Of a stretch of DNA of 12,761 bases, positions 3,550 to 12,761 are shown piece by piece. Position 1 is the first letter of the stretch. Each line of letters starts with the position of its first letter. The notes beneath the pieces are model-generated. The model had not been told where the DNA came from. It saw only the letters and a list, made by a program, of their open reading frames with translations, and made no database searches. The stretch spans positions 1 through 12,761 of the forward strand of contig CBDUFM010000015.1 in the NCBI GenBank assembly GCA_965366325.1, written 5' to 3'. A program made the translations under genes and the position numbers. Source of the DNA: an uncultured bacterium (GTDB lineage: Bacteria > Planctomycetota > UBA11346).

Positions 3550-3623
3550 GTCGAAATACTGGAGTCGAACCAGTGACTGACGGATTAACTGTCCGCTGCT
3601 CTACCCGCTGAGCTAATTTCCGA
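3550..3623 (-). tRNA. tRNA-Asn(GUU)-like gene, possibly a non-canonical tRNA or pseudo-tRNA.
   Basis: The cloverleaf reads from the minus strand. D-arm: GCUC-AGCGGGUA-GAGC. Anticodon arm: GCGGA-CAGUUAA-UCCGU, nearly identical to E. coli tRNA-Asn. Variable loop: CAGUC. T-arm: ACUGG-UUCGACU-CCAGU. Two oddities: position 33 is A rather than the near-universal U, and the 5' acceptor strand (UCGGAAAU) needs a bulged G to pair with the 3' strand (AUUUCGA). No CCA is encoded. Confidence 0.7.
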
Positions 3624-5462: not shown

Positions 5463-6221
5463 ATGCCTTACGAGACCTATCAAATTCTTTTATGTGCGCT
5501 GATCCTATTGGCTGGTGGATTTTTACAGAGCACCGTTGGTTTCGCCTTTGGTTTATTTGCGATCCCTTTATTAATGTGGATAAAAATTCCTATCGAACAA
5601 GTTTTGGCTATTATTACAGTTTCTACGTGCGCGCAGAGTTTGGTTGCATCGCGGGCAATGAGTGAGGTCAAGGTTCCGAAGCAGATGCTGTTGATAGCAG
5701 CGAGTATTCGCATTGTGTTTATAGTTTTAGGCACGCTTATTTTGCAGCTCATTGTGGATTTTGATAAAAATATAATGCACGCGATAATGGGTGTTATTCT
5801 TATTTGTTCGGTGCTGCTGCTGTGGTTATTGCCGCAACGAAAAACAGAGACTGTGCAGCGGGGCTTATTGTACGGAGTGAGCGCACCGCTGAGTGGGACA
5901 ATTGGTGGCATGATTGGTATGGGTGGTCCGCCACTGCTGTTGTGGGCGATGTTGCAGCCATGGGATCCGAAGCAAATCCGTGTATTTTTGTTTATGATGT
6001 TTATGACCTCGATTCCATTCCAATTTCCAATTCTTGTTATTGTATTTGGATGGGATGTTTGTTGGGGTGCTGCCTTAGCGGTTTTATGTTTCCCGCTGGT
6101 GTATGTGGGTTCTCGTTTGGGCGTGCAGGTGGGGAATAAATTGAGCAAGGCGCAGCTCACCCACATTGTTTATGTGCTGCTATTAATTTTAGGCACTCGT
6201 TCGATATTTAAATATTTTTAG
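5463..6221 (+). CDS. TauE/SafE (TSUP, DUF81) family anion permease, a probable sulfite/sulfate/sulfonate exporter.
   Basis: A 252-aa polytopic membrane protein. Its N-terminus (…LLCALILLAGGFLQSTVGFAFGLFAIPLLM) and the glycine-rich stretch GGMIGMGGPPLL are typical of the TauE/SafE family. Confidence 0.8.
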   Translation: MPYETYQILLCALILLAGGFLQSTVGFAFGLFAIPLLMWIKIPIEQVLAIITVSTCAQSLVASRAMSEVKVPKQMLLIAASIRIVFIVLGTLILQLIVDFDKNIMHAIMGVILICSVLLLWLLPQRKTETVQRGLLYGVSAPLSGTIGGMIGMGGPPLLLWAMLQPWDPKQIRVFLFMMFMTSIPFQFPILVIVFGWDVCWGAALAVLCFPLVYVGSRLGVQVGNKLSKAQLTHIVYVLLLILGTRSIFKYF

Positions 6222-6236
6222 GGCGTTGCTGTGGAT

Positions 6237-6965
6237 TTACTGCATCAGGTCAGAGCAGGCCTCGGCGCTGCGGGCGAGTAAACCACCATAATGGTCGATG
6301 TCATTATCGGGCATGGTAAAAATATTGCCGCCTAGACAGAGCGCACCAATAATCTGTCCTTTGCAATAAACTGGTGCAGCGAGGCGTCGTCGTTCAGGAC
6401 CCGGTAAATAGGTGAAGCCACGCTCATCAAGCCGTTCGAGGTTTTCAATTATTTCATTGAGACTTAACTGGTAGCCTTTCTCTGTTTGATTGTTAATGCT
6501 GTTGGGGTCTTGTTGCTGCCACCAGTCCATGGATTTAAATAACCAGCCCCAGGGAGCGACGTGGAGATTTTTGACCACATGTCCCGGTTCTTGGAGTGGC
6601 GAAGCGTCTTCGTGCATGATGCGATCGAGGCAGATCATGGCGCTGCCACTCCAATAAATGCTAATCGCGGTGTTGCCGCTGCGTTGCTGGAGGCTGTTAA
6701 GGAAGCATTGTGCGGCGTCGCGAAAGCGCAGGCGTTGATTGTCGTTGCCCACCAATTGGCCTACCTTGGCGCTGTTTATATAGCCCTGATTGTCAGCTAG
6801 TTTTTTGACATAGCCGAGTTCACTGAGGCTCTTGAGCAGGCGCATGGTGCTGGCATTCGAGGCCTCGATGCATTTGGCGATGTTGCTGAAGCTGAGTCCT
6901 GCACTGTGTTTAGCGAGCAGACTGATGACTTGAAGGCCGCGTTCTAGGGCTGCTGGGCTGGACAT
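6237..6965 (-). CDS. IclR-family transcriptional regulator.
   Basis: An N-terminal winged helix-turn-helix (LERGLQVISLLAKHSAGLSFSNIAKCIEASNASTMRLLKSLSELGYV) and an IclR-type C-terminal effector domain. It is transcribed divergently from the sulfatase. Confidence 0.85.
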   Translation of the reverse strand: MSSPAALERGLQVISLLAKHSAGLSFSNIAKCIEASNASTMRLLKSLSELGYVKKLADNQGYINSAKVGQLVGNDNQRLRFRDAAQCFLNSLQQRSGNTAISIYWSGSAMICLDRIMHEDASPLQEPGHVVKNLHVAPWGWLFKSMDWWQQQDPNSINNQTEKGYQLSLNEIIENLERLDERGFTYLPGPERRRLAAPVYCKGQIIGALCLGGNIFTMPDNDIDHYGGLLARSAEACSDLMQ

Positions 6966-7009
6966 GGGTGCTGCTCCATCATCAGGCTAGGGCTGTTGCT
7001 GATTTGAAT

Positions 7010-7046
7010 GTTTCAAAAATGAAACTTAGTTACAAAAATGTTGTAA
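7010..7046. promoter_or_regulatory. Two adjacent palindromes, candidate IclR operators, in the divergent iclR/sulfatase promoter region.
   Basis: GTTTCA-aaaa-TGAAAC at 7010-7025 and TTACAA-aaatg-TTGTAA at 7030-7046. Both carry the core CAAAAATG, and both overlap a possible TGAAAC-N16-TGTAAT promoter for the sulfatase gene. Confidence 0.4.
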
Positions 7047-7085
7047 TCAAGGCAAAACCTGTAGCCTCTGGCTAGCAAGGAGCTG

Positions 7086-8600
7086 ATGATGGCAGAGGCA
7101 CATACACAAATCCCCGAGCAGTGGCAGGGTTTATCAGAGCGGCCGAATATTTTATGGATCTGCACTGATCAGCAGCGTAGCGATACGCTAGGTTGTTATG
7201 GGAATCAATTCGTGCGCACACCTGCTATCGATAAACTGGCACGTGAAGGTGTTTTGTTCGAGCAGGCCTTTGTGCAGAATCCATTATGTACGCCGAGTCG
7301 CGGTAGTTTTTTAACCGGCCGTTATCCATCGACTAATCGTCTGCGTCAAAATGGTCAGCTGTGTCCCCCAGATATACGTATCCTGCCGCGGATGCTGGCC
7401 GATAAGGGCTATGTCTGTGGCTTGGCTGGGAAATTACATTTAAGTCCCTGCGATAAACGCTTTGAGAATACGCAAAGTAAATCCGACTGGTGGAAATATA
7501 AAAACGATTATTATTTCTGGGGAAGCGAAAAACGTATTGATGATGGTTATGCCGAATTTTATTGGAATCATGCGCCAGGAAGCGGATCAAATCAAAATTG
7601 CAGTGATTACAATCGTTGGGTACAAGAACGCGGCGGGGAGATAGCCTATCCTAAGCGCGATGACTGTCATTCTGTGTTACAGGGGATGCCTGATGAATTA
7701 CATCAAACCCGTTGGGCGGTTGATCACGCGATTAATTTTATGCAACGTCATGCAGAGACGGACTATCCGTGGATGTTTTCGCTCAATATTTTTGACCCGC
7801 ATCCGCATTTTGATCCCGAGCCCCAGTATTTAGAACGTTACTTAAAGATGCTTGATGATATTCCCTTGCCGGCCTATGTGGCTGGTGAAAATGACAGGAA
7901 ACCAGCGCATCATCAAAAAGCACATGGCGTTGCTGAATGGTCCGACCACGACAAAAAAATGATGGTCGCAGCTTATTGGGCCATGTGCGATCATATTGAT
8001 GCACATATGCAGCGTTTAATGGATGCCTTAGAGGCGAGCGGTCAGCGCGACAACACAATTATTATGTTTCATTCTGATCACGGTGAATTATTGGGTGATC
8101 ATAATAAATCACCAAAGGGGCCGTATTTATACGACTGTAGTGTGCGCGTACCTTTGATCATGTCGTGGCCGGGGCATTTTGCACAGGGCAAGCGCGTGCA
8201 GGGTTTGGTGGAATTAACGGATATCGCACCAACGATTAATGACATTTTGGATTTAGGCGAAGAGGCTTCGATGCAGGGCGAGTCTTTGTTGACGGTCTTG
8301 GAATCTGATGGTGATACCGCGCATGTACGCGAGAATGTGTATTGTGAATATCACAATAGTAATCCCCACGGCGGTAATCGTATTTACCTTAATATGCTGC
8401 GCACGGAGACGCATAAAATTATTGTCGCACATTCGACCAATGACGGTGAATTGTATGATTTACGCGCCGATCCCGGTGAGCACCGCAATCTGTGGTCAGA
8501 TCCCGATTATGCCGCTATTAAATGTGATCTCTTATTGCAGCTGAGCCATAGACAGGCATTTAGCACGGATCCCTTGCCACAGCGCGTCGGTATTTATTGA
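7086..8600 (+). CDS. Cys-type sulfatase (arylsulfatase / sulfuric ester hydrolase family), apparently cytoplasmic.
   Basis: Shine-Dalgarno AAGGAG at 7076-7081. The formylglycine signature C-T-P-S-R-G-S-F-L-T-G-R is present, as is the second sulfatase motif (…MFHSDHGELLGDH…). There is no N-terminal signal peptide. Confidence 0.9.
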   Translation: MMAEAHTQIPEQWQGLSERPNILWICTDQQRSDTLGCYGNQFVRTPAIDKLAREGVLFEQAFVQNPLCTPSRGSFLTGRYPSTNRLRQNGQLCPPDIRILPRMLADKGYVCGLAGKLHLSPCDKRFENTQSKSDWWKYKNDYYFWGSEKRIDDGYAEFYWNHAPGSGSNQNCSDYNRWVQERGGEIAYPKRDDCHSVLQGMPDELHQTRWAVDHAINFMQRHAETDYPWMFSLNIFDPHPHFDPEPQYLERYLKMLDDIPLPAYVAGENDRKPAHHQKAHGVAEWSDHDKKMMVAAYWAMCDHIDAHMQRLMDALEASGQRDNTIIMFHSDHGELLGDHNKSPKGPYLYDCSVRVPLIMSWPGHFAQGKRVQGLVELTDIAPTINDILDLGEEASMQGESLLTVLESDGDTAHVRENVYCEYHNSNPHGGNRIYLNMLRTETHKIIVAHSTNDGELYDLRADPGEHRNLWSDPDYAAIKCDLLLQLSHRQAFSTDPLPQRVGIY

Positions 8601-8699
8601 GGCGCTTGCATCTGTCGATGTCGAGCAACGAATCATGAACCTTGAGTAGCGCTTGCGTTTGCAGGGGGGTATCGGCATGCTGTGCCCTGTTTGGGGGCC

Positions 8700-10103
8700 A
8701 TGATGTTAAAAGATCACTTGCTGATTAATCACTTACTGCCGCAGTCTGTCGCCGTGTGTTGCTGTCTGTTTGTTGTGGCCTGCTTATCGAGTGGCGTCTC
8801 GATCTGTGCCGCTGAGACGCAGGCAGCGTTTCAAGCGTTTGCATTAAAAACCAAATTAGGGGCCGCAAAAACGACCTTTCGGGCCCAGTCCTTGGGTGCA
8901 TTGGCGCAGCCCGTAAGCGAAGAAATACAGATCGCTGATCTGTTGATGAAAACGTCACGCGATGAGAAGGGGGCGTTAGTCGTCGACTACGGCGCCGCGC
9001 GTCCAAAGACGTTGAAAAAGACAACGGTATTGAAGGTCGCGGTCTCTGATCCAGAAAAAGCGGGTAAAACTATTAAATTACAGATTGAATTTGCACGCGA
9101 CGCAGATGATCAATGGACCTATGCGAATAAAACCATTGTGGCGATCAGTGTGCCCGGACTTTCTGGGGCCCTGGCCCTTGTCGATGCGAATGCGAATGGG
9201 GTTTATAATGACGTGCGCGCCGATGGTCTTGCATGGCCCGGTCATCAGGTTCTATTCCCCTTGCCGACAGCTGGTGAATCGTGGGTCCTGCCGGGCATCG
9301 AAATTAAAGATTTTCAGCTAGGCTCGCTGGGGCAGGATGCGCGGGCCTCATTAAGACCCTTGGCATCGATTGCTGAAAATGGATTGGCGGTTTTAAATGG
9401 CGCGAATGCAGAGCGTGTGCGTTTGGGTTTAACTCCGCGACCTGAGTCAGCGGCACTGACCACTGCTATTGCCAAGCACTGTCATTGGATGGCATTAAAT
9501 AAACAATTGAGTCACCCGGAAAAAGCAGGGACGCCTGCTTATAGTGAGGAAGGGAACGCATCAGGTAAGCGCAGCATATTATCAAGTGGACGTGCGCCAA
9601 ATTTGGTTGCTGATGGTTTTGTGAAAACCTTGTATCATCGCTATGATGTTATTCGTGCTGATTTACTGGCCTTTGGCGTCGCCTCTGAATCTAACTATAG
9701 TGGGATTGACGGGCGCAGTGATTTACTGGCCGATGCTCCTGCGCATTGGTGGCCGATTTTATGTCCGATGCCCGAACAAGTGGGCGTACCCTTGGCGTTT
9801 AATTTGGAAATGCCGGATCCAATTGCTGGTGATAAAAAAGCAGGTTTCCCAATTACGGTGGTTTTTGATACGAATAAAACCAGCCTAAAATCGTATAGTT
9901 TAAAACAGGTGCTAAAGGGCAAGCTCGGCCCGGCGATTGAATGCTATACATTTGATGCCAAGGACAGTTTTGTTAAATTTGGTAACTCGGTTGCACTGAT
10001 AGCCAAGGACCCACTCCTGCCGGCGACGGTTTACCAAGTCATGATAGAAGCTGAACTTGCAGGTAAGCCATGGTCGAAAACTTGGGTTTTTCAAACGCGG
10101 TAA
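8700..10103 (+). CDS. Hypothetical protein, probably a lipoprotein or otherwise exported. Function unknown.
   Basis: A long ORF with a start at 8682, 8700 or 8703; a GGGGG run precedes 8700/8703. The N-terminus has a hydrophobic core ending in the lipobox-like V-V-A-C. It lies directly downstream of the sulfatase with no terminator between, so it is probably co-transcribed. Confidence 0.65.
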   Translation: MMLKDHLLINHLLPQSVAVCCCLFVVACLSSGVSICAAETQAAFQAFALKTKLGAAKTTFRAQSLGALAQPVSEEIQIADLLMKTSRDEKGALVVDYGAARPKTLKKTTVLKVAVSDPEKAGKTIKLQIEFARDADDQWTYANKTIVAISVPGLSGALALVDANANGVYNDVRADGLAWPGHQVLFPLPTAGESWVLPGIEIKDFQLGSLGQDARASLRPLASIAENGLAVLNGANAERVRLGLTPRPESAALTTAIAKHCHWMALNKQLSHPEKAGTPAYSEEGNASGKRSILSSGRAPNLVADGFVKTLYHRYDVIRADLLAFGVASESNYSGIDGRSDLLADAPAHWWPILCPMPEQVGVPLAFNLEMPDPIAGDKKAGFPITVVFDTNKTSLKSYSLKQVLKGKLGPAIECYTFDAKDSFVKFGNSVALIAKDPLLPATVYQVMIEAELAGKPWSKTWVFQTR

Positions 10104-10309: not shown

Positions 10310-10338
10310 GTGTTTAAATGCAAAGCAAAAATAAGAGA

Positions 10339-10788
10339 ATGAATATGTTAGTTACATCTATGCAGCTCAGAACGATACAAATCGAGGACTATGACGCGTT
10401 GTGGCAGTGCTGGAGCAATGAGCCTGGGATTGCCTTGTATGAATGCGACACGCGGCAAGGCATCGCCGCCTATTTACAACGTAATCCAGATTTAAGTGTA
10501 CTCATCGAGGTAGAGGGGGCGGATGGCGCATCATGCATAATTGGTAGTCTCTTGTGTGGGCATGACGGGCGGCGTGGTTTCGTGCATCATATGTGGATAG
10601 CGGCAGCGTATAGACGTCAGGGCTTAGCGGAGACCTTGTTTAAGGAGGCTTCTGCGCGCTTGGCTGCTATTGGCATTCAAAAAACCCATTTATTTGTGCA
10701 GGATGCAAATGGTTCTGCTCAGGAATTTTGGCATGCGATCGGTTGTGAGGAGCGGGAGGACTTACGCTTATTTAGTTTTAGCCATTGA
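10339..10788 (+). CDS. GNAT-family N-acetyltransferase.
   Basis: The acetyl-CoA binding motif A is present (…HHMWIAAAYRRQGLAETLF…). An AAGAGA Shine-Dalgarno precedes the ATG at 10339; the track start at 10318 overlaps the upstream terminator and is probably too early. Confidence 0.8.
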   Translation: MNMLVTSMQLRTIQIEDYDALWQCWSNEPGIALYECDTRQGIAAYLQRNPDLSVLIEVEGADGASCIIGSLLCGHDGRRGFVHHMWIAAAYRRQGLAETLFKEASARLAAIGIQKTHLFVQDANGSAQEFWHAIGCEEREDLRLFSFSH

Positions 10789-10805: not shown

Positions 10806-11414
10806 TTACACACATTTTTTAATGGTGGAAATTAAACCAGCAGTCTTAAAGCGTGCATGCGCCGCATCGGCCTCGCTTTTTGAGACATTGATTAAAACCT
10901 TGATAAATGGTTTTTTGGTCATGGCCTCTGCTTCATCGTTGCTAATTGCAAGAATTTCAGCAATAATTTCAACGGCGGCGCTGCGTTGTTTGGGGTTGAC
11001 TATTTTCTTTAAAAATAAGTTGAATGTGGCGGCTTCTTGGGTGTCGTTGCCGCCGAGGCCGGTGCTCGCCAGGCTGGGGGCGGCATCACCGCCAAAATCA
11101 AAGCGCACGGTTTGATTGGCGACAAAGCTGGGGTCGCTGTTTGTTGCTGCTGGGCTGCTTTCTTCTTCGCCAAAAAAAGTATCGGCGAATTCACCCCATT
11201 CTTCATCGACGTGTTCGGCATTTTGCGCAGCGACGGCCGCATGAATGGATTGATCTACGGTATCCCAGGCCTTCATGTCGCCGGTGCCTTTGAAGAATTG
11301 TTGTGTCATTTCACGTACATTTGGGTCTGCAGGCTCCTCACCAAAGAGGGTGTCGAGCTTGGAATCAAGGTCTGCAAATTCATCAAATTGAGCATCAGGA
11401 TCAGGCGTGGTCAT
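10806..11414 (-). CDS. Acidic protein with a ribosomal L7/L12 C-terminal-domain-like fold at its C-terminus.
   Basis: The last ~70 aa (TFNLFLKKIVNPKQRSAAVEIIAEILAISNDEAEAMTKKPFIKVLINVSKSEADAAHARFKTAGLISTI) align by eye to the L7/L12 CTD (EFDVILK…KVAVIKAVRG…[23 protein letters not shown]). The N-terminal ~130 aa are highly acidic and carry repeated aromatic-acidic motifs (FDEFADL…LFGEE; WGEFADTFFGEEE). Weak Shine-Dalgarno. Confidence 0.65.
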   Translation of the reverse strand: MTTPDPDAQFDEFADLDSKLDTLFGEEPADPNVREMTQQFFKGTGDMKAWDTVDQSIHAAVAAQNAEHVDEEWGEFADTFFGEEESSPAATNSDPSFVANQTVRFDFGGDAAPSLASTGLGGNDTQEAATFNLFLKKIVNPKQRSAAVEIIAEILAISNDEAEAMTKKPFIKVLINVSKSEADAAHARFKTAGLISTIKKCV

Positions 11415-11600
11415 AGAGGTAAACCCAGTGCAGATTTCAGTAGCTGATTAGCTAGGTATTGTTCGAATTGGTCGAGCAAAGTAAGGCTAACAGGCTGCGA
11501 CTACTTTGGCAACTGCTTGCTATGTTTTGTGTGTGTATGGTGGGTCTTTATGCTATTGCTGTATGGCAAACAGCGTGATTGTGCAAGGATGAGCGGCAGA

Positions 11601-12749
11601 TTAGGCCTGATTGCGGGTCTTGAGGATGTCGCTGGCTGTGTCTGCTTCGACCTCGGTGATGTCCATGTCGTCTTCTTCGCTGACTGGCATCGGGATATTG
11701 AGGGCGAGGATGGTCAGGTCATCACCAACATCATTGTTGGAAAATTCTTTTACTTCGTCGGCCATGGCGCTAACGATGTCTTCGCTGGAAAGGTCGTAAT
11801 TCGCAAGCAATGATGCCATGACACGGAAGTGGCCATATTCTTCTTTGTTATCATCCATGGCTTCGATGATGCCATCTGAATACTGGAGGAGGCAGTCACC
11901 TTCGCCCAATTGAATAATGGTGACGCGTAAGCTGTTTCTAAATAATTTGCCCGCCAATCCCATGGCCATGCCTTTGAGGCCAACCCGTTGCAGGACGTTG
12001 GGCTTGTGCATGTTCATCAGGAGGCAGGGGTGGTGCCCAGCAAGGACGCATTGTAATTCATCGGTGTCCGTATCGAGTACCGCGGCAAAGCCGGTGATGA
12101 ATTGTCCAGACAGTAAATCATTTTTAATTTCGTCGTTTAATTGTGTCATTAAATCGACGAGATCGTGTGAGCTGCGAGCGAGCAGGCGCAGTGTTTTCAT
12201 AGCGCTAGCAACTACGAGGGCAGCTTGCACGCCGTGACCAGTGACGTCGCCGAGCATGATAAAATAGCGTGATTCTGTTAATGGAATTGCTGTGTAAAAA
12301 TCACCACTGACTTGGCTGTAGCCTTCGTAGTGAACGGCGAACTCATAGTTTGGAATTTCTGGAAGTGGGCCGAGCGATTGCGTTTGAATTTCCTGGGCGC
12401 GCTTTAAATCCGCGTCGGCGTGTAATTCTTGTTCGCGGCGTTGTTCGGCTTCTTTAACGACCTTGTCTTCTTGGACGCGACGTTGACGGAGCATTTCACT
12501 GAGGTCGCTGTCTTCTTTAAAGACACCCTGCGCGGCAAAGGGGCACTGACTTAAAATCGCAGCAATTTGTGCAATGGTATTGCGGTTGATATTTTTTTGT
12601 GGCGCGTTGACGTCGTCTTGCCATTGCCCGGAAAAGGGATTTAACCAACCGCGGCCATCTTTGCCAAATAGGCGCAGGCGTGGGTCGTGCGGAATCATGC
12701 GTTCCACATCAAGCGTCCAGCGTAAATGCAGGAGGCGCGACATCGGCAT
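11601..12749 (-). CDS. PP2C-family Ser/Thr phosphatase (SpoIIE/RsbU-type), possibly 5'-truncated by the window edge.
   Basis: PP2C motifs are present: SGDFY, GDVTGHGVQAAL, DGIIEA and DDLTILAL. The C-terminus is an acidic tail. There is no in-frame stop between the first Met (12749) and the window end, so the true N-terminus (a sensor domain?) may lie outside the window. Confidence 0.85.
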   Translation of the reverse strand: MPMSRLLHLRWTLDVERMIPHDPRLRLFGKDGRGWLNPFSGQWQDDVNAPQKNINRNTIAQIAAILSQCPFAAQGVFKEDSDLSEMLRQRRVQEDKVVKEAEQRREQELHADADLKRAQEIQTQSLGPLPEIPNYEFAVHYEGYSQVSGDFYTAIPLTESRYFIMLGDVTGHGVQAALVVASAMKTLRLLARSSHDLVDLMTQLNDEIKNDLLSGQFITGFAAVLDTDTDELQCVLAGHHPCLLMNMHKPNVLQRVGLKGMAMGLAGKLFRNSLRVTIIQLGEGDCLLQYSDGIIEAMDDNKEEYGHFRVMASLLANYDLSSEDIVSAMADEVKEFSNNDVGDDLTILALNIPMPVSEEDDMDITEVEADTASDILKTRNQA

Positions 12750-12761
12750 GCATTGTTGGTC

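What the first reader, a model, noticed from the sequence alone, without database searches (positions are those of the whole stretch)
10806..12761. PP2C phosphatase followed by an acidic protein that fuses aromatic-acidic repeats to a ribosomal L7/L12 C-terminal-domain-like module
Seen in sequence: a SpoIIE/RsbU-type PP2C phosphatase (N-terminus possibly off-window) sits 186 bp upstream, on the same strand, of a 202-aa protein. That protein's last ~70 residues align convincingly to the L7/L12 CTD, the domain that recruits EF-Tu, EF-G, IF2 and RF3 to the ribosome. Its N-terminal two-thirds are a low-complexity acidic region with repeated F/W-x-E-F-A-D…F-G-E-E motifs. Established knowledge: PP2C phosphatases of this class normally act in partner-switching modules on STAS-domain proteins, and no STAS protein is present. 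Inference: a free, non-ribosomal L12-CTD carrying acidic-aromatic tails is reminiscent of eukaryotic/archaeal P-stalk C-terminal peptides, so it could act as a stalk mimic or decoy that titrates translational GTPases, perhaps regulated by phosphorylation. I do not recognise it as a described system.
Basis: partly seen in the sequence, partly recalled or inferred. Interest (0 to 1): 0.6.

Follow-up and report, generated by a model that had tools for sequence, protein, structure and literature searches.

The report
Non-ribosomal L12-like protein beside phosphatase
A small protein of an uncultured Planctomycetota bacterium does end in a copy of the ribosomal L7/L12 factor-binding domain, but most of the residues that bind translation GTPases are changed, it belongs to a large unstudied family of such free L12-like domains, and its link to the neighbouring phosphatase is only a local gene-order feature.

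Summary

The acidic N-terminal part carries two [FW]xEFAD…F(F)GEE motifs. It is not junk low complexity: it is as constrained as the folded domain.

The "stalk decoy" reading is poorly supported. The basic face K65/K70/R73/K81/K84 of bL12 reads R/E/A/D/E here, and the domain is net basic instead of acidic.

The protein is the smallest branch of a large, unnamed, mostly Planctomycetota family (at least 147 clusters). Members carry this basic L12-like domain at the C-terminus, usually behind acidic hydrophobic motifs, and none of the three sampled sits beside a PP2C.

PP2C adjacency holds in 6/6 genomes of one narrow clade. It is lost in PP2C orthologues at 63-69% and about 42% identity. The gene also has its own conserved extended -10 promoter.

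Best reading: a free bL12-derived tethered adaptor with an unknown, probably non-GTPase, client.

The parts
11601..12761 (-). 3' 1161 nt (386 codons plus stop) of a SpoIIE/RsbU-type PP2C Ser/Thr phosphatase. The full protein has 505 aa: an Arg-rich disordered N-terminus (off-window), a folded N-domain with two W-x-[DN]-P-[YF]-[ST]-G repeats, a long helix, the PP2C domain, and an acidic C-tail ITEVEADTASDIL.
   Evidence: Frame open to the window edge. Pfam SpoIIE E 1e-39. Full-length identical protein P0160. AF2 pLDDT 88 with residues 1-57 disordered. Closest folds are the Rv1364c RsbU domain, SiaA, P. aeruginosa RssB and SpoIIE. Metal-binding motifs GDFY, DVxGHG, DG and DD are invariant in 72 homologues.
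11415..11600 (-). 186-bp spacer between the PP2C stop and the target start. It is about 80-105 bp in the relatives.
   Evidence: The simple scan found no terminator-like hairpin here. No Rfam family matched.
11484..11512 (-). Conserved sigma-70-type promoter of the target gene: -35 TTGCCA (11512-11507), a 17-nt spacer ending in TGT (TG at 11492-11491, extended -10), and -10 TAGCCT (11489-11484).
   Evidence: TTGCC and CTGTTAG are the only invariant blocks in an otherwise diverged intergenic alignment of 5 genomes. The pattern recurs at the orthologous spot in L002, L003, L004, L005 and L010. L001 has TTGCTT-N17-TACCCT even though its upstream gene there is a different, opposite-strand gene. 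Function as a promoter is inferred from the consensus, not shown.
10806..11414 (-). Complete gene for the 202-aa acidic protein (pI 4.4) with an L12-CTD-like C-terminus.
   Evidence: 7 homologues; alignment; purifying selection.
11145..11414 (-). Residues 1-90: the acidic N-terminal region (pI 4.05), with conserved amphipathic helices predicted at low confidence.
   Evidence: Composition. AF2 helices 6-24, 31-41 and 47-82 at pLDDT 50-65. pN 0.21-0.28, equal to the folded CTD. No significant match to any solved structure or to the bL12 N-terminal domain.
11334..11396 (-). Motif copy 1, residues 7-27: DAQFDEFADLDSKLDTLFGEE.
   Evidence: F10, D11, F13, A14, D15, L16, D17, L20, D21 and F24 are invariant in 7 orthologues. 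F13, L16 and F24 are also kept in the two paralogues.
11286..11309 (-). Invariant block MTQQFFKG (residues 36-43).
   Evidence: M36, T37, F40, F41, K42 and G43 are invariant in orthologues and paralogues.
11154..11207 (-). Motif copy 2, residues 70-87: VDEEWGEFADTFFGEEES.
   Evidence: D70, E72, W73, F76, A77, F80 and F81 are invariant. hhalign places FFGEE on the ELFPDD motif of the larger Planctomycetota family.
11025..11144 (-). Residues 91-130: a flexible G/A/S/P-rich linker containing the conserved island QTVRFDFGG..PS.
   Evidence: pLDDT below 50. Highest pN, 0.34-0.52. Q101, T102, R104, F105, D106, G109, P113 and S114 are invariant.
10815..11024 (-). Residues 131-200: L7/L12-CTD-fold domain (beta-alpha-alpha-beta-alpha-beta), net charge +4.
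   Evidence: for fold and homology. for residue mapping and charge.
10809..10814 (-). C-terminal Cys201-Val202. The penultimate Cys is invariant in the orthologues and both paralogues, and absent from the wider family.

Best explanation
What it is (shown). The 202-aa product is a real, selectively constrained, cytoplasmic, non-ribosomal paralogue of ribosomal protein bL12 in an uncultured Planctomycetota lineage. It has three parts:
- A 90-residue strongly acidic N-terminal region of conserved amphipathic helices. Two of them carry [FW]xEFAD…F(F)GEE.
- A linker of about 40 residues that is flexible.
- A 70-residue head with the L7/L12 C-terminal-domain fold.

It is the smallest and most divergent branch of a large, unnamed, mostly Planctomycetota family. 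In that family the same basic L12-like head closes proteins of very different lengths, including coiled-coil proteins, zinc-ribbon proteins and a Ser/Thr kinase. The head is typically preceded by acidic hydrophobic motifs such as SRLNELFPDE and DITSILNRLLPDE.

How it most likely works (inferred). It acts as a tethered two-part adaptor built on the bL12 plan of dock, hinge and head, but with a changed client.
- The Lys/Arg face that bL12 uses to catch EF-Tu, EF-G, IF2 and RF3 is neutral or acidic here, and the head has become net basic. It therefore probably docks on another acidic protein surface or on nucleic acid.
- The acidic helices are either ligand motifs for a second partner or mask the basic head in cis.

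Relation to the phosphatase. The gene has its own conserved sigma-70-type promoter. The upstream RsbU/SpoIIE-type PP2C is a neighbour conserved only inside one narrow clade. It is a possible regulator or partner, but an unproven one.
For: Fold and homology of the head:
- Family profile against PDB returns bL12 (E 0.0015 and 0.0028).
- hhalign against bL12: probability 88.7%, E 2.6e-6.

Membership of the larger family:
- An exhaustive HMM search finds 147 further 50%-identity clusters that share only the head, down to E 1e-12.
- 38 of 73 of them match Pfam PF00542, best E 7e-12.
- hhalign against the closest subgroup gives probability 99.4%, E 3e-21, and extends through the FFGEE/ELFPDD motif.
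- 38 of 147 members match the short motif pattern, most of them with the LFPDE/LLPDE motifs, and others have D/E-rich stretches before the head.
- Source names, where given, are Planctomycetota, "hypothetical" or "ribosomal protein L7/L12".

Changed client face:
- K65/K70/R73/K81/K84 become R144/E149/A152/D160/E163, i.e. +5 to -2. V66 becomes S and L80 becomes N. Head net charge is +4 against -1, and the wide-family median is +4.
- Contact residues are taken from PMC5887453 and PMC10602876.

The N-terminal region is functional: pN equals that of the head while dS is saturated.

Own promoter is conserved in 6/6 genomes.

The PP2C link is local only.
Against: - No partner has been identified, so the adaptor mechanism rests on architecture and surface chemistry alone.
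- K65 (as R/K), I69 and E82 equivalents are retained, and 5 of 8 family members keep K70. A weakened or altered GTPase contact is therefore not excluded.
- PP2C adjacency is perfect (6/6) within the clade despite saturated synonymous divergence. That is compatible with a real functional link which the comparative data cannot resolve, because the whole block is syntenic.
- The N-terminal helices are low-confidence predictions (pLDDT 50-65).
Confidence: 0.5

Rival explanations
1. Phosphatase partner or substrate. The acidic L12-like protein is the phospho-substrate, or a regulatory partner, of the adjacent RsbU/SpoIIE-type PP2C. It would replace the STAS protein in a new kind of partner-switching module. 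It might contact the phosphatase through charge complementarity, either acidic N-terminus with the Arg-rich PP2C N-tail, or basic head with the acidic PP2C C-tail.
For: - The gene lies directly downstream on the same strand in 5/6 clade genomes, and one gene further in the sixth.
- The PP2C is catalytically intact.
- No STAS protein or GHKL kinase is nearby.
- Invariant T37, T102, S114 and T197.
- The PP2C has a roughly 60-residue Arg-rich disordered N-tail and an acidic C-tail, ITEVEADTASD[IV]L, found in the clade and its 63-69% relatives.
- A family member is fused to a Ser/Thr kinase (P0100).
Against: - The whole block of about ten genes is syntenic in these genomes, so adjacency carries little information.
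- PP2C orthologues with the same architecture at 63-69% identity (L013, L014: Rieske-PP2C-Na/Pi transporter-PhoU) and at about 42% identity (L011, L012) have no such neighbour.
- In L001 an opposite-strand gene separates the two.
- The target has its own promoter.
- Three sampled members of the wider family are not next to a PP2C.
- All known substrates of this PP2C class are STAS or STAS-like proteins (own knowledge).
Confidence: 0.17
2. Stalk mimic or decoy. The free L12-CTD binds EF-Tu, EF-G, IF2 or RF3 away from the ribosome and titrates them. The acidic-aromatic motifs would act like P-stalk tails.
For: - True L12-CTD fold and homology.
- Retained K65-like basic residue, I69-like hydrophobic residue and E82. 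K70 is kept in 5/8 family members.
- No ribosome-anchoring N-terminal domain, so the protein would be free.
Against: - Contact residues V66, L80, K81, K84 and R73 are replaced in all members, and K70 is replaced in the window protein. The charge of the face is inverted, +5 to between -2 and +2.
- The head is basic whereas the bL12 CTD is acidic.
- The wider family also lacks the basic face.
- P-stalk peptides act at the extreme C-terminus on archaeal and eukaryotic factors (PMC5887453). Here the motifs are N-terminal and the factors are bacterial.
Confidence: 0.08
3. Alternative ribosome-bound stalk or ribosome-associated protein. The N-terminal helix (EFADLDSKLDTLFGE) would be a relic of the bL12 N-terminal helix (ELISAMEEKFGV) and would still dock on uL10. 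Alternatively, the basic head binds rRNA. Either way an altered head is placed on the ribosome.
For: - Both HMMER and hhalign pick exactly this helix pair as the best local match between the N-terminal region and bL12.
- The dock-hinge-head architecture is the same as in bL12.
- The head is basic, and the wider family has basic tails.
Against: - The helix match is not significant: HMMER -0.4 bits; hhalign probability 0.4%, E 0.14.
- There is no Pfam Ribosomal_L12_N hit.
- The first helix of the bL12 dimerisation domain has no counterpart.
- The gene is not in a ribosomal operon.
Confidence: 0.07
4. ClpS-like proteolysis adaptor. The head is a ClpS-type domain that delivers substrates to a Clp protease, with the disordered N-terminus acting like the ClpS N-terminal extension.
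For: - ClpS also has a flexible N-terminal extension (own knowledge).
Against: - All sequence-profile hits are bL12 and none is ClpS.
- The stretch that would hold the ClpS N-degron pocket motif (N-D-D…H, own knowledge) reads KKIVNPKQR.
- No clpA or clpC gene is nearby.
Confidence: 0.03

Closest known systems
Ribosomal protein bL12 (L7/L12), C-terminal domain (Pfam PF00542; PDB 1ctf, 8yeq)
   Same: - Same beta-alpha-alpha-beta-alpha-beta fold, 20-26% identity, gapless apart from a 2-residue loop insertion.
- Shared core and the GVSK/AE signature.
- Same overall plan: a helical N-part, a flexible Ala/Gly/Pro-rich hinge and a globular head.
   Different: - No bL12 N-terminal dimerisation and uL10-binding domain.
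- Not in an rplJ-rplL context.
- The GTPase-contact face is largely replaced (R/E/A/D/E for K65/K70/R73/K81/K84; V66S, L80N).
- The head is net basic (+4 against -1).
- Scores below the Pfam and NCBIfam cut-offs.
- Penultimate Cys.
- 90-residue acidic aromatic N-region.
Unnamed Planctomycetota family of C-terminal L12-CTD-like domains (for example the roughly 330-aa proteins P0010-P0044; annotated "hypothetical" or, loosely, "ribosomal protein L7/L12")
   Same: - The head is closest to these (E 1e-12; hhalign 99.4%).
- The head is basic.
- An acidic hydrophobic motif (…LFPDE / FFGEE) and a low-complexity linker lie upstream of the head.
   Different: - The window family lacks their N-terminal domain and zinc ribbon.
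- It has a unique N-terminal region (extra motif copy, MTQQFFKG).
- It ends in KKC[VLT] instead of a basic tail.
- It occurs only in one narrow clade, once as three tandem paralogues.
ClpS (N-degron adaptor of ClpAP), same ClpS-like fold class
   Same: - Same fold class.
- Small head plus a flexible N-terminal extension.
- Works as an adaptor.
   Different: - Lower structural and sequence similarity than bL12.
- N-degron pocket residues absent.
- No clp genes nearby.
RsbU/RsbV/RsbW, SpoIIE/SpoIIAA/SpoIIAB and SiaA/SiaB/SiaC partner-switching modules
   Same: The neighbouring phosphatase is of this PP2C subclass. Its best structural matches are the Rv1364c RsbU domain, SiaA, P. aeruginosa RssB and SpoIIE. 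It has a long helical linker before the catalytic domain.
   Different: - No STAS or STAS-like substrate and no GHKL or SiaB-type kinase in the neighbourhood.
- The L12-like protein has an unrelated fold.
- Linkage is not conserved outside one clade.
Archaeal/eukaryotic ribosomal P-stalk C-terminal peptides (aP1, P1/P2)
   Same: Acidic run followed by aromatic or hydrophobic residues and Gly (…FFGEE against …MGFGLFD). Both are attached through a flexible region.
   Different: - P-stalk peptides sit at the extreme C-terminus and bind archaeal and eukaryotic factors (PMC5887453).
- Here the motifs are N-terminal or internal in a bacterium.
- They are homologous to the LFPDE motifs of a Planctomycetota family.
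- The resemblance is compositional only.

Membership tests
Ribosomal protein bL12 (L7/L12) | C-terminal domain with the beta-alpha-alpha-beta-alpha-beta L12-CTD fold | tested here: met
Ribosomal protein bL12 (L7/L12) | Sequence reaches the curated family thresholds (Pfam PF00542 25.9 bits; NCBIfam TIGR00855 84.4 bits) | tested here: not met
   12.6 bits, E 0.18. 19.7 bits, E 8.9e-4. Homology is nevertheless supported by profiles and transitively through the wider family.
Ribosomal protein bL12 (L7/L12) | N-terminal dimerisation and uL10-binding domain (Pfam PF16320) | tested here: not met
   No Pfam hit even at E up to 10. N-terminal profile against PDB gives nothing significant. hhalign against bL12: probability 0.4%.
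Ribosomal protein bL12 (L7/L12) | Conserved GTPase-contact residues on helices 4 and 5 (V66-V68, K70, L80, E82; conserved K65, K70, K81, K84) | tested here: not met
   R144, S145, A146, A147, E149, A152 (for R73), N159, D160, E161, E163. Face charge goes from +5 to -2. Residue list from PMC5887453 and PMC10602876.
Ribosomal protein bL12 (L7/L12) | Gene in the rplJ-rplL (rif) operon context | tested here: not met
   Flanked by a PP2C and a convergent GNAT. No ribosomal genes in the window or in relatives' neighbourhoods.
Planctomycetota C-terminal L12-CTD-like domain family (unnamed) | Basic L12-like head at the extreme C-terminus with the signature (F/Y)(S/N)(V/L)FL…A…EA…K.(I/F)I(P/K)VL…F | tested here: met
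   HMM E down to 1e-12 against 147 clusters. hhalign 99.4%, E 3e-21. Column comparison. Net charge +4, equal to the family median.
Planctomycetota C-terminal L12-CTD-like domain family (unnamed) | Acidic hydrophobic motif(s) …LF(P/G)(D/E)(D/E) upstream of the head | tested here: met
   LFGEE at 23-27 and FFGEE at 80-84. FFGEE aligns with ELFPDD in the profile-profile alignment.
ClpS adaptor | ClpS-like fold | tested here: met
ClpS adaptor | N-degron pocket residues (N34, D35, D36, H66 of E. coli ClpS; own knowledge) and ClpS sequence family | tested here: not met
   No ClpS hit in Pfam, NCBIfam or PDB sequence searches. The corresponding stretch reads KKIVNPKQR. 8-16% identity in structural alignments.
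PP2C partner-switching module (RsbU/SpoIIE type) | SpoIIE-family PP2C with intact metal-binding motifs | tested here: met
   Pfam SpoIIE E 1e-39. Invariant GDFY, DVxGHG, DG and DD in 72 homologues. Structural matches to the RsbU domain, SiaA, RssB and SpoIIE.
PP2C partner-switching module (RsbU/SpoIIE type) | STAS-domain (or SiaC-like) phospho-substrate encoded nearby | tested here: not met
   No STAS hit in any window ORF or in called genes of L001-L004 and L010.
PP2C partner-switching module (RsbU/SpoIIE type) | Cognate serine kinase / anti-sigma factor (GHKL HATPase_c) nearby | tested here: not met
   None in the window. Neighbours are an ADK-like P-loop protein, a receiver domain and a Rieske protein. 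Hanks kinases occur only in L002, several kb away.
PP2C partner-switching module (RsbU/SpoIIE type) | Phosphorylation of the candidate substrate and its dephosphorylation by the PP2C | not testable with these tools
   Needs phosphoproteomics or in-vitro assays.

The most novel reading that the evidence does not exclude
Planctomycetota may have turned the factor-recruiting head of the ribosomal stalk into a widely re-used, free-standing signalling module. On this reading the acidic 202-aa protein, with its own promoter, still engages the translation machinery, either an altered set of translational GTPases or the stalk base through its bL12-like N-terminal helix. The adjacent redox/two-component-linked PP2C (receiver - Rieske - PP2C block) would switch it on or off. 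That would be a phosphorylation-controlled stalk competitor regulating translation.
Probability: 0.1. Interest if true: 0.75.

Novelty: new variant of a known kind. Interest (0 to 1): 0.4.

Why it matters
The L7/L12 C-terminal domain is textbook-known for one job: recruiting translational GTPases to the ribosome. [quoted passage not shown]

This analysis shows that Planctomycetota carry at least 147 sequence clusters of non-ribosomal proteins ending in a diverged, basic version of this domain. One is fused to a Ser/Thr kinase. The window protein is a minimal, stand-alone representative with conserved acidic helical motifs.

If the client of this head were found, it would define a new interaction module and show how a ribosomal domain was exapted. 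The minimal 202-aa protein would be the simplest handle for that experiment.

As it stands, the function is unknown. The attractive decoy/phospho-switch story is not supported by the residues or by comparative genomics.

Tried and rejected
- Single-sequence searches (Pfam, PDB phmmer) do not reach significance for L12. Only profiles and structure do.
- N-terminal region: profile against PDB gave only chance-level hits, VPS37B E 0.065. hhalign against bL12 picks the NTD helix but at probability 0.4%. An NTD origin is therefore not claimed.
- ClpS reading rejected: lower scores and no pocket residues.
- RimL idea (the convergent GNAT as an L12 N-acetyltransferase) rejected. The GNAT is generic, with weak RimI similarity only (E 1.3e-6, below cut-off) and no RimL hit.
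- Defence-system reading: no PADLOC hit for the PP2C, the target or the upstream Abi-like ORFs.
- The simple promoter/terminator scan found nothing in the spacer. The conserved promoter emerged only from the intergenic alignment.
- No Rfam family other than tRNA-Asn.
- The scan of JGI metagenome contigs for more family loci found none. The genome-contig scan found only the known MAG.
- The afdb50 fold library was unavailable.
- Literature searches for non-ribosomal L12-CTD proteins or Planctomycetes L12-like proteins returned nothing relevant.
- The bL12 set fetched with E. coli L7/L12 was nearly all Enterobacteriaceae. The T. maritima segments agree with the PDB alignment.


Full report
**1. 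What is in the sequence**

Both genes of the finding are on the minus strand.
- The reading frame 11601-12761 is open to the window edge (387 codons, no upstream stop). It matches Pfam SpoIIE at E 1e-39.
- A protein identical over the in-window part (apart from one residue, item 9 of section 11), found on an overlapping public contig, is 505 aa long.
- The PP2C stop codon ends at 11601 and the next ATG is at 11414, giving a 186-bp spacer.
- The 202-aa ORF 10806-11414 ends 17 bp from a convergent GNAT gene (10318-10788).
- Relatives place the contig in Planctomycetota (MAG PL25a_bin.47, GCA_028280785.1).

**2. The 202-aa protein is a real, constrained gene of a very small family**

- A search of 5.8 billion clustered proteins finds only seven members at 50-100% identity.
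- An exhaustive HMM scan of 1.84 billion representatives adds only one paralogue cluster that covers the N-terminal part (P0008).
- Against five orthologues, synonymous sites are saturated (pS 0.72-0.90).
- Non-synonymous change is low and equal in the acidic N-terminal part (pN 0.21-0.28) and the C-terminal domain (0.21-0.26). Only the linker is relaxed (0.34-0.52).
- The N-terminal two-thirds are therefore not throw-away low complexity.
- That region holds three invariant blocks: DAQFDEFADLDxKLDxxFG(E/D), MTQQFFKGxGDM and VDxEWxDFAxxFF.
- Residues 1-90 have pI 4.05 (23 D/E, 4 K/R). Residues 131-202 have pI 9.7.

**3. The C-terminal module is an L7/L12-CTD homologue**

Alone, the sequence is sub-threshold:
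- PDB phmmer E 1.1.
- PF00542 12.6 bits against a cut-off of 25.9.
- NCBIfam L12 E 8.9e-4.

Profiles and structure support the assignment:
- The family profile puts bL12 in six of the eight PDB hits (E 0.0015 and 0.0028).
- hhalign against a bL12 alignment gives probability 88.7%, E 2.6e-6 over 70 columns.
- AlphaFold2 predicts beta-alpha-alpha-beta-alpha-beta for residues 131-200 at pLDDT 84-89.
- Foldseek superposes it on 1ctf at TM 0.88 and rmsd 1.5 Å.

Nothing resembling the bL12 N-terminal dimerisation and uL10-binding domain is detectable. hhalign does choose the bL12 helix ELISAMEEKFGV as the best partner of EFADLDSKLDTLFGE, but at probability 0.4% (also -0.4 bits). I record this as a lead, not a finding.

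**4. It belongs to a large unnamed family**

- The HMM scan returned 147 further 50%-identity clusters that match only the head. The match is always at their extreme C-terminus, in proteins of 73 to 1353 aa.
- 38 of 73 tested reach Pfam PF00542, best E 7e-12.
- Source names, where present, are "hypothetical protein", "ribosomal protein L7/L12" or "serine/threonine protein kinase". Named organisms are Planctomycetota apart from one Chloroflexota/Anaerolineales protein. P0100 has a kinase domain.
- The closest subgroup, proteins of about 330 aa, carries two acidic hydrophobic motifs upstream of the head: SR(L/M)(N/D)ELF(P/G)(D/E)(D/E) and DITSILNRLLPDE.
- Profile-profile alignment of the window family with this subgroup gives 99.4%, E 3e-21. 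It runs from FFGEE (aligned on ELFPDD) through the linker to the end of the head.
- Other branches have D/E-rich runs before the head.
- The window protein is thus a minimal, divergent member of a lineage-specific expansion of the bL12 head. It did not come directly from rplL.

**5. Test of the decoy idea**

- Published contact and conserved residues of E. coli bL12 are V66-V68, K70, L80 and E82 (PMC5887453), and K65, K70, K81 and K84 (PMC10602876).
- My E. coli sequence and numbering were checked against database entries.
- In the alignment (gapless apart from a 2-residue loop insertion before helix 4) the window protein reads R144, S145, A146, A147, V148, E149, A152 (for R73), S158, N159, D160, E161 and E163.
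- The basic face K65/K70/R73/K81/K84 (+5) becomes R/E/A/D/E (-2). Across the family it ranges from -2 to +2. In the wider family the commonest values are -1 to +1.
- The head as a whole is net +4 (wide-family median +4), against -1 in E. coli.
- The head is therefore unlikely to grip the acidic G' domain or helix D surfaces in the bL12 manner.
- A K65-like basic residue, I69 and E82 are retained, so some altered contact cannot be excluded.

**6. The phosphatase and the neighbourhood**

- The PP2C is catalytically intact. GDFY, DVxGHG, DG and DD are invariant in 72 homologues.
- It models at pLDDT 88 as:
  - an Arg-rich disordered tail (residues 1-57);
  - a folded N-domain with two W-x-[DN]-P-[YF]-[ST]-G repeats;
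  - a 45-residue helix;
  - the PP2C domain;
  - a low-confidence acidic C-tail.
- Its catalytic domain is closest to the Rv1364c RsbU domain, SiaA, P. aeruginosa RssB and SpoIIE.
- No STAS protein or GHKL kinase is nearby.
- In six genomes of one clade the order is receiver - Rieske protein (about 540 aa) - PP2C - target, followed by a convergent GNAT. An ADK-like gene lies further upstream. This order is shown for the five relatives; in the window itself everything upstream of the PP2C is off-window, so only PP2C - target - GNAT can be read there.
- In these genomes the downstream genes (sulfatase, IclR, TauE) are syntenic too, so the order says little about function.
- In L001 an opposite-strand acetyltransferase gene separates the PP2C from the target, and two extra tandem paralogues follow.
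- PP2C orthologues with the same architecture at 63-69% identity keep the Rieske gene but are followed by a Na/Pi cotransporter and PhoU (L013, L014).
- Those at about 42% identity have unrelated neighbours (L011, L012).
- Three sampled members of the wider L12-like family are not next to a PP2C.

**7. Own promoter**

- The intergenic alignment is diverged except for two blocks. These form TTGCCN - 17 nt ending in TGT - TA(G/C)nnT, a sigma-70 -35 element plus an extended -10 element.
- In the window the -35 is at 11512-11507 and the -10 at 11489-11484, minus strand.
- The pattern is at the orthologous place in L002, L003, L004, L005 and L010.
- L001 has it as TTGCTT…TGT TACCCT, although the upstream gene there is different.
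- The target is therefore most likely an independent transcription unit. Read-through from the PP2C is not excluded, since no terminator was seen.

**8. Interpretation**

Shown:
- A free, non-ribosomal bL12-head paralogue with a constrained acidic helical N-region.
- Membership of a big Planctomycetota family.
- An altered factor-binding face.
- A local-only PP2C linkage.
- An own promoter.

Inferred: a tethered adaptor (dock, hinge, head). Its basic head binds a non-GTPase client, either an acidic protein surface or nucleic acid. Its acidic helices either bind a second partner or mask the head in cis.

Rivals, with my probabilities:
- PP2C partner or substrate, about 0.17.
- GTPase decoy, about 0.08.
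- Ribosome-bound alternative stalk or ribosome-associated factor, about 0.07.
- ClpS-like adaptor, about 0.03.

**9. Novelty**

- I found no paper describing non-ribosomal L12-CTD proteins in bacteria or in Planctomycetes.
- A 2024 review of extraribosomal functions, searched only for the term 'bL12', returned a single passage. [quoted passage not shown]
- The domain itself is known, and Pfam already recognises many family members. I therefore rate this a new variant of a known kind, of moderate interest (0.4).
- The interest lies mainly in the size of the unexplored family and in the minimal protein as an experimental handle.
- The attractive phospho-regulated decoy model is not excluded, but it is disfavoured.

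**10. Limits**

- No complex prediction could be run.
- The AFDB library was unavailable.
- Only one relative is from a named MAG.
- Whether these genomes also carry a canonical rplL was not checked.
- The ClpS pocket residues, the substrate range of RsbU-type PP2Cs and the P-stalk tail consensus are quoted from my own knowledge.

**11. Seen in passing** (the same list is filed in the noticed-in-passing field)

1. tRNA-Asn(GTT) lies next to a low-GC stretch (0.39-0.40 against about 0.47-0.50). That stretch holds two overlapping ORFs with no family match beyond a faint Abi_2 hit, so it may be an island or a defence cargo.
2. The target has a conserved extended -10 promoter in all six genomes, described in section 7.
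3. The MAG PL25a_bin.47 carries three tandem paralogues of the acidic L12-like protein (219, 200 and 181 aa; 32-53% identical). All keep the FG(D/E) helix, the MTxxFFKG block, the KP[FI]IKVLI strand and the penultimate Cys.
4. Receiver, a 540-aa Rieske protein and the PP2C keep their order. The Rieske-PP2C pair persists in relatives that lack the target downstream, so it looks like the more stable unit. An ADK-like P-loop protein lies nearby on either strand.
5. The PP2C has a 57-residue Arg-rich disordered N-tail, an unassigned N-domain with two W-x-[DN]-P-[YF]-[ST]-G repeats and conserved Cys residues, and an acidic C-tail seen only in the closer relatives. That tail loosely resembles the family's DITSILNRLLPDE motif, which may be chance.
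6. In the wider family the head is fused to TPR plus a Ser/Thr kinase (P0100), to long coiled coils (P0046, P0056), or follows zinc-ribbon-like CxxC motifs (P0010, P0025). A Chloroflexota protein (P0153) has three more canonical L12-CTD copies.
7. The convergent GNAT gene ends 17 bp from the target's stop and is kept next to it in 6/6 genomes. It is a generic GNAT with only weak RimI similarity and no RimL hit.
8. A TauE exporter, an IclR regulator, a sulfatase and a signal-peptide protein with a weak CAP match form a sulfated-substrate locus. The GNAT, sulfatase, IclR and TauE genes recur in the relatives, though not all in each (sulfatase in L001, L002 and probably L004; TauE in L003 and L010). 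This is why adjacency to the PP2C carries little information.
9. The window's PP2C reads …GMAMGLAGKLF… where the overlapping contig's P0160 reads …GMAMGLVAGKLF…, a one-codon difference between two assemblies of the same gene.

Noticed in passing
window 3550-3623 (-) and 500-2000: tRNA-Asn(GTT) lies next to a lower-GC stretch (0.39-0.40 against about 0.47-0.50). That stretch holds two overlapping minus-strand ORFs (596-1285 and 1282-1794) with no family match beyond a faint Abi_2 hit. It could be an integrated island or defence-type cargo at a tRNA. There is no PADLOC hit.
   Followed up: partly
window 11484-11512 (-); L001 about 9937-9966; L002 9935-9959; L003 5473-5497; L004 8207-8231; L010 8501-8525: A conserved sigma-70-like extended -10 promoter (TTGCCN-N17 ending TGT-TA[GC]nnT) lies upstream of the L12-like gene in all six genomes. 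It persists where the upstream gene differs.
   Followed up: yes
L001 10001-10660, 11026-11628, 11724-12269: The MAG PL25a_bin.47 carries three tandem paralogues of the acidic L12-like protein (219, 200 and 181 aa; 32-53% identical). All keep the FG(D/E) helix, the MTxxFFKG block, the KP[FI]IKVLI strand and the penultimate Cys.
   Followed up: partly
L001 3249-8538; L002, L003, L004, L010; L013 and L014: Conserved block of a single-domain receiver, a 540-aa protein with an N-terminal Rieske [2Fe-2S] domain, and the PP2C. The Rieske-PP2C pair persists in relatives that lack the L12-like gene downstream (L013, L014), so it looks like the more stable functional unit, possibly redox input to the phosphatase. 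An ADK-like 400-aa P-loop protein lies nearby on either strand.
   Followed up: partly
P0160 (full-length PP2C of the window organism); window 11601-12761: Unusual features of the PP2C: a 57-residue Arg-rich disordered N-tail; a confidently folded N-domain with two W-x-[DN]-P-[YF]-[ST]-G repeats and conserved Cys (QCMP, SQCP) with no assigned family; and an acidic C-tail ITEVEADTASD[IV]L present only in the closer relatives (63% identity and above). The tail loosely resembles the DITSILNRLLPDE motif of the L12-like family, which may be chance.
   Followed up: partly
P0100 (1353 aa), P0046, P0056, P0010, P0025: In the wider family the L12-like head is fused to TPR plus a Ser/Thr kinase (P0100), to long coiled coils (P0046, P0056), or follows zinc-ribbon-like CxxC motifs. 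The N-terminal domain of P0010 and P0025 may itself be of a similar small alpha/beta type. A Chloroflexota protein (P0153) has three more canonical L12-CTD copies.
   Followed up: partly
window 10318-10788 (+): A convergent GNAT acetyltransferase gene ends 17 bp from the stop of the L12-like gene and is kept next to it in 6/6 genomes. E. coli bL12 is N-acetylated by the GNAT RimL (own knowledge), but this protein is a generic GNAT with only weak RimI similarity and no RimL hit.
   Followed up: yes
window 5463-10103: A TauE/SafE sulfite-exporter-like gene, an IclR regulator, a sulfatase (504 aa) and a 473-aa protein with a signal-peptide-like N-terminus and a weak CAP-domain match form a typical Planctomycetota sulfated-substrate locus. 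The GNAT, sulfatase, IclR and TauE genes recur in the relatives, though not all in each (sulfatase in L001, L002 and probably L004; TauE in L003 and L010). This is why adjacency to the PP2C carries little information.
   Followed up: no
window 11601-12761 versus P0160: The window's PP2C reads …GMAMGLAGKLF…, whereas the overlapping-contig protein P0160 reads …GMAMGLVAGKLF…. This is a one-codon difference between two assemblies of the same gene, either an assembly error or strain variation.
   Followed up: no
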